Origin: Escherichia coli
Lineage (GTDB): Bacteria > Pseudomonadota > Gammaproteobacteria > Enterobacterales > Enterobacteriaceae
Reading direction: 5' to 3' (one strand)
DNA length: 64,000 bases
Assembly: GCF_041248615.1 (NCBI RefSeq)
Contig: NZ_CP158426.1
Positions 60,585 to 60,845 of this stretch are shown one piece after another. The notes below the pieces were generated by a model that worked only from the letters and a program-made list of their open reading frames with translations, was not told the DNA's origin and ran no database searches. The translations under genes were made by a program, and so were the position numbers. Within the stretch, counting starts at the first letter, position 1. Every line of letters starts with the position of its first letter.

Positions 60585-60845
60585 TGACAGGTGTGGCACA
60601 TTTGTGCCTGGGAAGAGGGTGAAAATCCCTCGCAGCCCCCGCTGCTGTAATGCTGACAAACCCGAAAATGCCACTGATCGCGAGATTGGGAAGGTCGGGA
60701 GAGGATGACGCTAAGCCAGAAGACCAGCCAGTCAGTCAATACCAACAACTTCGGTGGGAAGTGGGTTGCCCGGAAGCGTCCGGTAGAGTACCGGCGCGTC
60801 TTTATACCCCTACCACCCTGAAAGGATCAGGGTATGGCGGCATCA
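60585..60845 (+). promoter_or_regulatory. Cobalamin (AdoCbl) riboswitch-like leader, homologous in position to the Salmonella cob operon leader
   Basis: ggtgaaaatccctcgcagcccccgctgctgtaatg core plus gccactg B12-box-like element; boundaries approximate. Confidence 0.6.

What the first reader, a model, noticed from the sequence alone, without database searches (positions are those of the whole stretch)
60585..60845. Orphaned cobalamin riboswitch: cob operon leader retained but cbi genes absent
The sequence after pocR has the hallmarks of a cobalamin riboswitch (ggtgaaaatccc...cgcagcccccgctgctgtaa...gccactg). In Salmonella this leader controls cbiA through cobT. Here no cbi gene is recognisable and cobUST follow after one short ORF, so only the salvage/nucleotide-loop genes appear to be under B12 sensing.
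Basis: partly seen in the sequence, partly recalled or inferred. Interest (0 to 1): 0.5.

Follow-up and report, generated by a model that had tools for sequence, protein, structure and literature searches.

The report
B12 riboswitch heading a truncated cob operon
This is a genuine, evolutionarily maintained vitamin-B12 riboswitch in propanediol-using E. coli. It no longer controls B12 synthesis genes but two small, persistently open leftovers of them (cbiA', cbiG'), followed by the salvage genes cobUST.

Summary
Rfam RF00174 (Cobalamin) matches window 60572-60746 (+) at 109.4 bits (gathering score 31.5). RefSeq already annotates it as a riboswitch in the identical E. coli strain XJ6.1.

It is the orthologue of the Salmonella/Citrobacter cob-operon leader. 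The B12 box, the hairpin over the ribosome-binding site and the cbiA start codon are all intact.

The interpretation needs two corrections:
- **cbi remnants are recognisable.** There is a 44-codon cbiA' ORF (60834-60968). The "short ORF" (60965-61402) is the N-terminal ~118 residues of CbiG. The two ORFs are joined by an ATGA stop/start overlap.
- **The riboswitch is not a relic.** Across six Escherichia lineages it differs by 5-9%, against 16-27% for the adjacent remnants (Fisher p 5e-9 to 3e-6).

Both remnant ORFs stay open in every lineage (neutral expectation for cbiG' 2.5e-4). cbiG' has dN/dS 0.42, against 0.73 for stop-purged neutral evolution.

The module travels with pdu/pocR (642-644 of 5426 E. 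coli genomes), not with cobUST (5398). It is also conserved where cobUST is broken (E. albertii) or absent downstream (Scandinavium).

The likely mechanism is a B12-OFF translational switch on cbiA'/cbiG'. Control of cobUST by polarity is plausible but unproven.

Overall this is a known kind of element in a new variant. Interest is moderate.

The parts
59566..60480 (+). pocR, the AraC-type activator of pdu/cob, immediately upstream of the riboswitch
   Evidence: Pfam PocR (8.7e-46) plus HTH_AraC; PGAP annotation in XJ6.1
60481..60571 (+). Short pocR-riboswitch spacer (91 nt). Its promoter status is unresolved. It is roughly 130-280 nt shorter than in relatives with a complete cob operon.
   Evidence: Alignment A1 shows about 150 columns absent in Escherichia. 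No sigma-70-like hit and no + strand terminator here. Distances in other loci. This spacer diverges about 20% between distant Escherichia lineages.
60572..60746 (+). Cobalamin riboswitch aptamer (RF00174)
   Evidence: 109.4 bits, E=1.7e-26. Covariation in P1, P2 and the P4-like hairpin, including an Escherichia-specific G-C to A-U double change. Only 5-7% divergence and no gaps across Escherichia lineages.
60713..60729 (+). B12 box (AAGCCAGAAGACCAGCC)
   Evidence: Read from the sequence. Nearly invariant in 27 homologues.
60747..60833 (+). Expression platform. It has an invariant block UUCGGUGGGAAGUGGGUUG (60750-60768), a variable hairpin, then the hairpin ACCCUGA-AAGGA-UCAGGGU (60815-60833), whose loop is the Shine-Dalgarno sequence and whose 3' arm abuts the AUG.
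   Evidence: MFE fold. Conserved through to Salmonella, Citrobacter and Klebsiella. 5-9% divergence within Escherichia.
60834..60968 (+). cbiA' remnant ORF, 44 codons. It starts at the ancestral cbiA AUG. Roughly the first 15 codons are homologous to cbiA, and the last ~27 nt are homologous to the cbiF-end/cbiG-start region. Its TGA stop overlaps the cbiG' ATG (ATGA).
   Evidence: tblastx and alignment. Open with identical length in all 8 Escherichia sequences despite 18-27% divergence. dN/dS 0.59.
60882..60910 (+). Small hairpin followed by a U-rich run inside cbiA' (weak terminator-like or pause-like site) at the deletion junction
   Evidence: Flagged by the scan, but not above chance. A 5-bp stem GCUGC/GC(G/A)GC plus a U-run is kept in most Escherichia lineages. 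Its function is speculative.
60965..61402 (+). cbiG' ORF, 145 codons: a degenerate, truncated CbiG N-terminal domain plus a tail of about 27 residues
   Evidence: NCBIfam NF004463 positions 1-125 of 351, E=6e-19, far below the cut-off. No Pfam hit. Alignment to real CbiG shows a 7-residue deletion and loss of the SGHxGGAN motif. Open in all lineages (P=2.5e-4 under neutrality). dN/dS 0.42 against 0.73±0.11 in stop-purged neutral simulations.
61403..61535 (+). cbiG'-cobU spacer with the promoter-like site TTGAGA-16-TATATT (61407-61434), the inverted repeat TTACGCG/CGCGTAA (61433-61456), and a conserved block just upstream of cobU
   Evidence: Promoter scan, 10 of 12 matches. The region is shared with K-12 and nearly all E. 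coli that lack the riboswitch.
61536..62081 (+). cobU
   Evidence: Pfam CobU 2.8e-64; PGAP
62078..62821 (+). cobS (ATGA overlap with cobU)
   Evidence: PGAP annotation; sequence
62833..63912 (+). cobT
   Evidence: PGAP annotation

Best explanation
The element is the AdoCbl-sensing leader of the enterobacterial cob operon. It is kept intact (aptamer, B12 box, hairpin sequestering the ribosome-binding site, cbiA AUG) in front of an operon that two deletions cut down to cbiA' (44 codons), cbiG' (145 codons) and cobU-cobS-cobT.

Proposed mechanism:
- When B12 is bound, the hairpin over the Shine-Dalgarno sequence stays closed and the cbiA' mini-ORF is not translated.
- cbiG' starts on the stop codon of cbiA' (ATGA), so it is switched off with it by loss of termination-reinitiation coupling.
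- The untranslated ~570 nt is then exposed. This should lower read-through of PocR-driven (or pocR read-through) transcripts into cobUST, through Rho, decay, or the weak hairpin/U-run inside cbiA'.
- cobUST keep a basal promoter of their own in the spacer.

Shown here: the identity of the riboswitch, its purifying selection, the architecture, and selection to keep both remnant ORFs open. Inferred: ligand response, translational mode, coupling, and any effect on cobUST.
For: Rfam hit at 109.4 bits and PGAP annotation.

Orthology to the Salmonella and Citrobacter cob leader through the cbiA ATG. The RBS hairpin is predicted and conserved.

The riboswitch differs at 14-18 of 262 positions, against 99-128 of 566 in the adjacent remnant ORFs, in five Escherichia lineages (Fisher p 5e-9 to 3e-6). 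pocR dS is 0.36-0.57 over the same comparisons. Compensatory changes are present.

Within E. coli the riboswitch is ≥99% identical in 311 of 644 genomes, against 23 of 644 for the next 262 nt.

Both ORFs, the ATGA overlap and a GGAG Shine-Dalgarno sequence are kept in all lineages. The neutral probability of all lineages staying open is 0.064 for cbiA', 2.5e-4 for cbiG', and <5e-5 for both. The only indel is in frame, whereas flanking spacers carry 1-12-nt gaps.

No strong intrinsic terminator lies between the riboswitch and cobU.

Published precedent: translational riboswitches in E. coli, including the AdoCbl btuB switch, trigger Rho-dependent termination in the early coding region (PMC5499598, PMC11162775). 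A B12 riboswitch controlling a translated uORF needed for the downstream gene by termination-reinitiation is described in PMC11260477. Repression of the Salmonella cob operon requires the leader plus the first translated ORF (Richter-Dahlfors & Andersson 1992, as cited in PMC3050690).
Against: There are no expression data of any kind. The promoter feeding the riboswitch was not located: the spacer after pocR is only 91 nt and has no sigma-70-like match.

No C-rich, G-poor rut-like stretch is seen in 60747-61535.

cobUST have promoter-like sequence of their own. They persist without the riboswitch in about 4,750 of 5,426 E. coli genomes.

The riboswitch and ORFs remain conserved in E. albertii (cobU with a 148-nt deletion, cobT absent). 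They also remain conserved in four Scandinavium lineages with no cobUST downstream. So cobUST control cannot be the whole reason for their retention.
Confidence: 0.6

Rival explanations
1. The conserved target of the riboswitch is the CbiG-N-derived small protein itself (cbiG'). On this view it has acquired a new role tied to the pdu/PocR system or to corrinoid handling, and cobUST are bystanders with their own promoter.
For: cbiG' dN/dS is 0.42 in Escherichia, below all 400 stop-purged neutral simulations (0.73±0.11). The CbiG-like part of the Scandinavium ORF has dN/dS 0.30, against a neutral 0.79±0.13 for the whole ORF.

Scandinavium keeps pocR, the riboswitch (103 bits) and a 179-aa fused ORF, then nac and cbl, with no cobUST. 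Its aptamer diverges 0-4% against 9-23% for the ORF.

E. albertii keeps the module although cobU and cobT are dead.

In E. coli the module co-occurs with pduC and pocR (642-644 genomes) and not with cobUST (5398).

Both genera end the CbiG homology within the same ~10 residues.
Against: The sequence is highly degenerate relative to real CbiG. The conserved SGHxGGAN motif is lost differently in the two genera, and Escherichia has a 7-residue deletion.

There is no Pfam hit. The AlphaFold model is only moderate (pLDDT 72) and finds no significant structural neighbour.

Amino-acid identity is 67-74% between Escherichia lineages whose PocR is 96-97% identical. 88% of E. coli do without it. No function can be proposed from sequence.
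Confidence: 0.25
2. The riboswitch now acts on pocR/pdu rather than on anything downstream. With the spacer cut to 48-91 nt it would be co-transcribed with pocR as a 3' element. B12-dependent translation, termination or decay downstream would then feed back on pocR mRNA, tuning pdu expression to B12 supply.
For: The spacer between pocR and the aptamer is 91 nt in Escherichia and 48 nt in Scandinavium, against roughly 220-370 nt in relatives with a complete operon. No promoter-like or + strand terminator-like site follows pocR. The riboswitch shows near-perfect co-occurrence with pocR and pdu. Listeria links a B12 riboswitch to pocR, though through an antisense RNA (PMC9943018).
Against: This is purely inferential. 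The element is in the sense orientation with a complete translational platform aimed at the cbiA' AUG, and that platform would be needless for a 3'-UTR role. The remnant ORFs are kept open, which this model does not require. Activator-dependent promoters often escape consensus scans.
Confidence: 0.1
3. The riboswitch is a functionless relic of the lost cbi operon that has not yet decayed (a truly orphaned riboswitch).
For: The cbi genes are gone. Most E. coli have lost the whole segment through several different deletions next to IS elements.
Against: Divergence is three- to four-fold lower than in the flanking remnants, and far lower than at synonymous sites, across lineages with dS about 0.4-0.5. 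Base-pair changes are compensatory. The 262 nt carry no indels. The same pattern recurs independently in Scandinavium. Rfam scores of 103-113 bits are as high as in species with complete operons.
Confidence: 0.05

Closest known systems
Salmonella enterica cob-operon leader (AdoCbl riboswitch upstream of cbiA, downstream of pocR)
   Same: It is orthologous by position and sequence. The aptamer, B12 box, invariant GGUGGGAAGUGGG block, RBS hairpin and cbiA AUG align at 81-85% identity. It has the same Rfam family and the same strand relation to pocR.
   Different: In Salmonella the leader heads about 20 genes (cbiA-cbiP, cobUST). Here it heads two degenerate remnant ORFs plus cobUST. The region 5' of the aptamer is about 150 nt shorter in Escherichia. 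The remnants, not enzymes, are the first translated sequences.
E. coli btuB AdoCbl riboswitch
   Same: It is in the same Rfam family. It is a translational OFF switch by RBS sequestration, and translation repression triggers Rho-dependent termination in the early coding region (PMC5499598, PMC11162775). This is the mechanism I infer for polarity on cobUST.
   Different: btuB is a single functional gene present in all E. coli. The element here is accessory (12% of genomes), controls a uORF-like pair, and has no experimental data. No rut-like composition was found.
Mycobacterium tuberculosis ppe2 B12 riboswitch with a translated leader ORF (PMC11260477)
   Same: A B12 riboswitch controls translation of a short upstream ORF. 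Expression of the next gene depends on that translation through overlapping stop/start termination-reinitiation. The cbiA'-ATGA-cbiG' arrangement has the same layout.
   Different: It is a different riboswitch subclass and an unrelated organism. Here the uORF is a fossil of cbiA rather than a dedicated leader peptide, and the coupling is only inferred.
Listeria monocytogenes B12 riboswitch at the 3' end of pocR (AspocR)
   Same: It is a B12 riboswitch adjacent to pocR in a pdu/cob locus and links propanediol utilisation to B12 availability (PMC9943018).
   Different: In Listeria it is antisense to pocR and drives an antisense RNA ending at an intrinsic terminator. Here it is in sense orientation with a translational platform.
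CbiG, cobalt-precorrin-5A hydrolase
   Same: Residues 1-118 of the 145-aa ORF align to CbiG positions 1-125, with 42-46% identity to enterobacterial CbiG.
   Different: It lacks the middle and C-terminal domains. It scores 68 bits against a 546-bit cut-off, has lost the conserved SGHxGGAN motif, and has a 7-residue deletion. It cannot be a functional CbiG.

Membership tests
Cobalamin riboswitch (Rfam RF00174, clan CL00101) | Covariance-model score at or above the curated gathering threshold over the full model | tested here: met
   109.4 bits against 31.5, model positions 1-189 of 189, E=1.7e-26
Cobalamin riboswitch (Rfam RF00174, clan CL00101) | Conserved B12 box and core motifs | tested here: met
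   AAGCCAGAAGACCAGCC at 60713-60729, plus GCCACUG and the GGUGAAAAUCC/CAGCCCCCGC core. Invariant in 27 homologues.
Cobalamin riboswitch (Rfam RF00174, clan CL00101) | Helices supported by covariation | tested here: met
   40 consensus pairs, 10 with both-sides changes, including G-C to A-U in the Escherichia lineage. The alignment is of close relatives, so the support is modest in depth.
Cobalamin riboswitch (Rfam RF00174, clan CL00101) | Lies 5' of, and on the same strand as, B12-related genes | tested here: met
   cbiA' and cbiG' remnants and cobUST lie downstream on the + strand
Cobalamin riboswitch (Rfam RF00174, clan CL00101) | Binds AdoCbl (or another corrinoid) and changes expression | not testable with these tools
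   Needs in-line probing and reporter assays
Enterobacterial cob-operon leader (Salmonella type) | Position downstream of pocR, with homology through the platform to the cbiA start codon, including the RBS hairpin | tested here: met
Enterobacterial cob-operon leader (Salmonella type) | Controls a complete cbiA-cbiP, cobUST biosynthetic operon | tested here: not met
   Only cbiA' (44 codons) and cbiG' (145 codons) remain before cobUST. No cbiA-D-like DNA in any complete E. coli genome.
Enterobacterial cob-operon leader (Salmonella type) | Long 5' leader and promoter region between pocR and the aptamer | tested here: not met
   91 nt here against roughly 220-370 nt in relatives with a complete operon. 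The promoter was not identified.
CbiG (cobalt-precorrin-5A hydrolase, NF004463; Pfam CbiG_N/mid/C) | Full-length three-domain protein scoring above the curated cut-off | tested here: not met
   68.4 bits against 546, and only profile positions 1-125 of 351. No Pfam domain reported, whereas Hafnia CbiG hits all three domains.
CbiG (cobalt-precorrin-5A hydrolase, NF004463; Pfam CbiG_N/mid/C) | Residues invariant among the real CbiG sequences aligned here (e.g. SGHxGGAN) | tested here: not met
   TGPAGGAV in Escherichia and AEGKQAS in Scandinavium
Orphan/relic riboswitch (no selective maintenance) | Evolves at the neutral rate of its surroundings | tested here: not met
   5-9% against 16-27% divergence, Fisher p ≤3e-6 in five lineages. 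Same pattern in Scandinavium.

The most novel reading that the evidence does not exclude
cbi-less, pdu-positive enterobacteria (Escherichia, Scandinavium) have kept a three-part module next to pocR for a long evolutionary time. It consists of the B12 riboswitch, a fossil cbiA start used as a uORF, and a truncated CbiG N-domain. On this reading cbiG' encodes a new, fast-evolving B12-repressed small protein that serves propanediol metabolism or corrinoid handling. Alternatively, its obligatory translation is the device that transmits the riboswitch decision. Either way the riboswitch's conserved target is this fossil-derived gene rather than cobUST.
Probability: 0.3. Interest if true: 0.6.

Novelty: new variant of a known kind. 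Interest (0 to 1): 0.42.

Why it matters
The riboswitch itself is ordinary and already annotated. Three things are of interest.

- **Regulatory rewiring by deletion.** A biosynthetic operon leader survives the loss of about 17 biosynthetic genes and remains under selection. This is a natural example of that kind of rewiring.
- **Remnant ORFs that behave like genes.** cbiA' and cbiG' are annotated as 'hypothetical' or as a pseudogene, yet they behave like selected coding sequence in two genera. This offers a tractable test of whether riboswitch output depends on translated uORFs and termination-reinitiation in E. coli, or whether a new small protein arose from an enzyme fragment.
- **History of B12 genes in enterics.** The ancestor of Escherichia apparently carried pdu together with an already truncated cob operon. 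This refines the classical 'loss and reacquisition' picture (Lawrence & Roth, cited from memory).

There is also a practical point. pdu-positive E. coli, which to my recollection include many gut pathobionts, may regulate corrinoid salvage differently from K-12.

Tried and rejected
- **Pfam on cbiG', cbiA' and the Scandinavium ORF:** no family found.
- **NCBIfam on the cbiA' peptide and on the frames of the cbiG' tail and spacer,** to find a cbiP or other cbi remnant at the second deletion junction: nothing. The origin of 61320-61535 is unresolved. The pocR-anchored loci stop short of cbiP, so no DNA comparison was possible.
- **PDB sequence search with cbiG':** only chance hits, E>0.6.
- **AlphaFold2 model of cbiG'** (pLDDT 72, pTM 0.67) **and Foldseek against the PDB:** only generic Rossmann-like matches, none with E≤0.001. 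Not informative.
- **C/G composition scan for a rut-like region:** none found.
- **Promoter scan of the pocR-aptamer spacer:** no hit. A manual reading suggests an AATAAT -10-like hexamer near 60527, but this is not evidence.
- **Intrinsic terminator as the riboswitch output:** rejected. No G+C-rich hairpin with a T-run follows the aptamer, and the only + strand candidate (60882-60900) is weak and within chance expectation.
- **Antisense (Listeria-type) arrangement:** rejected on orientation.
- **Literature searches** for a prior description of this E. coli architecture: nothing specific found. The library lacks most subscription-journal papers, so absence is not proof.
- **Whether the Escherichia and Scandinavium truncations are one ancestral event or two:** not decidable. 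The cbiA'/cbiG' junction regions share no detectable DNA similarity.
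Full report
**1. What the window is**

The window is a stretch of an E. coli chromosome. The 1.2 kb around the finding is 100% identical to strain XJ6.1 (NZ_CP074356). The PGAP gene order there is pduV…pduA (minus strand), then pduF, pocR, 'riboswitch', a hypothetical protein, cobU, cobS, cobT and ldtA.

**2. Checking the observation**

An Rfam 15 scan of all 64 kb finds the Cobalamin family RF00174 at 60572-60746 on the + strand. The score is 109.4 bits (gathering 31.5, E=1.7e-26), full length.

They correctly extend through the expression platform to the ATG at 60834.

An RNAalifold consensus of 27 homologous leaders from Enterobacterales gives 40 pairs. Ten of these carry compensatory changes, including a G-C to A-U double substitution specific to Escherichia. 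It is also already recorded in RefSeq annotation.

**3. What lies downstream**

The leader is the orthologue of the Salmonella/Citrobacter/Klebsiella cob-operon leader. blastn gives 81-85% identity from the aptamer to window position ~60842. The multiple alignment shows three near-invariant features:
- the block UUCGGUGGGAAGUGGGUUG;
- the sequence CCCUACCACCCUGAA(C)AGGAUCAGGGU;
- the following AUGGCGGCA, which is the cbiA start.

In the window, ACCCUGA-AAGGA-UCAGGGU (60815-60833) folds as a 7-bp hairpin. The Shine-Dalgarno sequence is in the loop and the AUG directly follows.

Translated comparison with complete operons shows that homology continues for about 15 codons of cbiA, to ~60878. It then jumps about 6 kb to the last ~27 nt before cbiG and into cbiG, from ~60938.

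So the 44-codon ORF 60834-60968 is a cbiA 5' fossil. The 'short ORF' 60965-61402 is the N-terminal part of CbiG:
- NCBIfam NF004463 matches positions 1-125 of 351, E=6e-19, at 68 bits against a cut-off of 546.
- tblastn identity to CbiG of about 55 species is 42-46% over residues 1-112. In those species the gene always sits ~6 kb further from pocR.
- It is degenerate: a 7-residue deletion, the SGHxGGAN motif changed to TGPAGGAV, no middle or C-terminal domain, and no Pfam hit.

The TGA of cbiA' overlaps the ATG of cbiG' (ATGA), and a GGAG lies 8-12 nt upstream. cobU starts 133 nt after cbiG'.

No cbiA-D-like DNA exists in any of 5,426 complete E. coli genomes.

**4. Is the riboswitch a relic?**

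The same architecture is present in several other Escherichia: E. whittamii, two cryptic 'E. coli' species representatives, E. marmotae, E. albertii and other Escherichia sp..

| Segment | p-distance to the window |
|---|---|
| aptamer | 5-7% |
| platform | 5-9% |
| cbiA' | 18-27% |
| cbiG' | 16-21% |
| pocR-aptamer spacer (distant lineages) | ~20% |

The aptamer and platform have no gaps. pocR dS is 0.36-0.57 over the same comparisons. Fisher tests of riboswitch against remnant ORFs give p from 5e-9 to 3e-6 in five lineages.

Within E. coli, 311 of 644 carriers are ≥99% identical to the window over the riboswitch. Only 23 of 644 are over the next 262 nt. The riboswitch is therefore under purifying selection long after the cbi genes were lost.

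**5. The remnant ORFs behave like selected coding sequence**

In all eight Escherichia sequences cbiA' is exactly 44 codons and cbiG' is 144-145 codons. Start codons and the ATGA overlap are preserved, and the only indel is 3 nt.

I simulated neutral K80 evolution (κ≈4) on the NJ tree of this region (total length 0.65). The results were:
- all six lineages keep cbiG' open in 0.025% of runs;
- all six keep cbiA' open in 6.4% of runs;
- both stay open in none of 20,000 runs.

Nei-Gojobori dN/dS values were:

| Gene | dN/dS |
|---|---|
| cbiG' | 0.42 |
| cbiA' | 0.59 |
| pocR, cobS, cobT, cobU | 0.03-0.14 |

Simulations that are neutral except for removal of stop codons give 0.73±0.11 for cbiG'. 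The observed value is lower than all 400 runs. For cbiA' they give 0.78±0.23, which is not different from the observed value.

So cbiA' looks like a frame kept open. cbiG' additionally carries weak amino-acid constraint. One natural E. coli allele fuses the two frames into a 188-aa ORF, and another ends 9 codons early with a 3-codon (9-nt) in-frame deletion.

**6. With what does the module travel?**

In complete E. coli genomes:

| Feature | Genomes (of 5426) |
|---|---|
| riboswitch | 644 |
| cbiA'/cbiG' 5' part | 644 |
| pocR | 644 |
| pduC | 642 |
| cobU-proximal 0.3 kb | 5398 |

In K-12 and other strains the homology starts inside cbiG', at window 61276 or 61231 among other endpoints, next to IS5 or IS4 remnants. 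cobUST therefore function without the riboswitch in most E. coli. A promoter-like TTGAGA-16-TATATT sits in the shared spacer at 61407-61434.

Conversely, E. albertii keeps the riboswitch (112.8 bits) and both open ORFs. Yet its cobU has a 148-nt deletion with stops, and cobT is missing.

A second genus, Scandinavium (RIT691 and three further lineages), has this order: pdu, pduF, pocR, riboswitch (103 bits), one fused 179-aa cbiA'-cbiG' ORF, then nac and cbl. There is no cobUST downstream.

The Scandinavium pattern matches Escherichia:
- aptamer 0-4% and platform 1-5% divergent, against 9-23% for the ORF;
- ORF open in all four lineages (P=0.008 under neutrality);
- dN/dS 0.37 overall and 0.30 in the CbiG-like part, against 0.79±0.13 stop-purged neutral.

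The CbiG homology ends within the same ~10 residues in both genera. Whether this reflects one ancestral truncation or two could not be decided.

**7. Mechanism**

Established knowledge supports the following:
- The Salmonella cob leader represses translation of cbiA in response to AdoCbl, and needs the leader plus the first translated ORF (Richter-Dahlfors & Andersson 1992, cited in PMC3050690). The enhancer/hairpin details come from my memory of Ravnum & Andersson.
- Translational riboswitches in E. coli, including btuB, secondarily trigger Rho termination in the early coding region (PMC5499598, PMC11162775).
- A B12 riboswitch can act through a translated uORF by termination-reinitiation (PMC11260477).

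My best-supported reading runs as follows. B12 keeps the RBS hairpin closed. cbiA' is not translated, so cbiG' is not translated. The naked RNA then reduces read-through into cobUST. cobUST also have basal promoters of their own.

A small conserved hairpin plus U-run inside cbiA' (60882-60910) might add a translation-sensitive termination or pause site, but it is weak. No rut-like composition was seen. The promoter that feeds the riboswitch was not found. The spacer after pocR is only 91 nt here and 48 nt in Scandinavium, against roughly 220-370 nt in relatives with a complete operon. Co-transcription with pocR is therefore possible.

Every step beyond sequence anatomy and selection is inference.

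**8. Rivals**

- **(a) cbiG' itself is the conserved target, as a new small protein.** This is supported by E. albertii, Scandinavium, the linkage to pdu, and ω below neutral. It is weakened by the degeneracy of the sequence and the lack of any recognisable fold or function.
- **(b) The riboswitch acts on pocR mRNA as a 3' element.** This is suggested only by the short spacer and the co-occurrence.
- **(c) It is a pure relic.** This is contradicted by sections 4-6.

**9. Comparison with the known, and verdict**

The element is a member of RF00174 and the orthologue of the Salmonella cob leader. Those membership features were tested and met. The features 'heads a complete cbi operon' and 'long 5' leader' were tested and not met. 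cbiG' is not a CbiG.

It misses the two cbi fossils, the selection acting on them and on the riboswitch, and the evidence that cobUST are neither dependent on the module nor required for its retention.

The riboswitch as such is known and annotated. The truncated, selected uORF/cbiG' arrangement linked to pdu in two genera appears undescribed in the literature I could search. It is a new variant of a known kind, of moderate interest.

Noticed in passing
L050 (Hafnia paralvei ATCC 29927) 11266-17504: The order here is: cobalamin riboswitch (110 bits); a fused ORF of cbiA' and the C-terminal part of CbiF; a full-length three-domain cbiG; then, on the opposite strand, an OLD-family ATPase and a UvrD-like helicase (Gabija-like pair). 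This looks like another, independent deletion that brings cbiG next to the cob leader, with a defence island cutting or ending the operon.
   Followed up: partly
L082-L084 (E. albertii) 3435-4880: cobU carries a 148-nt deletion and in-frame stops, and cobT is absent between cobS and ldtA. pdu, pocR, the riboswitch, cbiA' and cbiG' are intact. At least 13 E. albertii contigs show the same neighbourhood.
   Followed up: partly
L057 vs L091 (Scandinavium): A sharp change of divergence occurs along the locus between two strains. pocR differs 2.2%, the aptamer 0% and the cbiA' part 9%, but the CbiG-like part 23% and the spacer to nac 19%. This suggests a recombination breakpoint inside the ORF.
   Followed up: no
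window 60882-60910: A 5-bp hairpin (GCUGC/GCGGC or GCAGC) followed by AAUC and a U-run lies inside the fast-evolving cbiA' remnant at the deletion junction. It is retained in most Escherichia lineages. It could be a translation-sensitive terminator or pause site.
   Followed up: partly
window 61433-61456 and 61480-61535: The inverted repeat TTACGCG(N10)CGCGTAA overlaps the -10-like hexamer of the promoter-like site. A block just upstream of cobU (ATCCATTGTTCTG.TCAAT.AATACCATCATACAATTGAA) is much better conserved across Escherichia than the rest of the spacer. These are candidate cobU regulatory sequences.
   Followed up: no
window 59422-59505 (-): An Rfam STnc230 sRNA match (71 bits) lies in the pduF-pocR intergenic region, antisense to the pduF-pocR direction. 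It is also present at the same place in E. albertii (65 bits).
   Followed up: no
window 32296-32419 (-), 35158-35232 (+), 6814-6852 (+): His operon leader (131.6 bits), STnc240 sRNA (68 bits) and a JUMPstart element (61 bits). These are ordinary landmarks of the E. coli his / O-antigen region.
   Followed up: no
L089 (K-12) 2740-4109; L090 3805-4163: In strains lacking pdu, the 3' fragment of cbiG' abuts IS5 (K-12) or an IS4 remnant (FORC_029). At least four different left-hand endpoints exist (window 61062, 61231, 61276, 61353), so the pdu-riboswitch segment was lost several times.
   Followed up: partly
P0001 (Logan contig), cf. window 60834-61402: A natural E. coli allele merges cbiA' and cbiG' into a single 188-aa ORF. 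This resembles the fused arrangement seen in Scandinavium.
   Followed up: no
L002/L019 and L063: The MAG 'Citrobacter sp. HRGM_Genome_0066' contains both an E. coli-type copy (98% identical to the window) and a Citrobacter-type copy of this locus, so it is probably a chimeric bin. A 383-nt contig in a Streptomyces cahuitamycinicus assembly encodes 98%-identical E. coli PocR, which is probably contamination.
   Followed up: no
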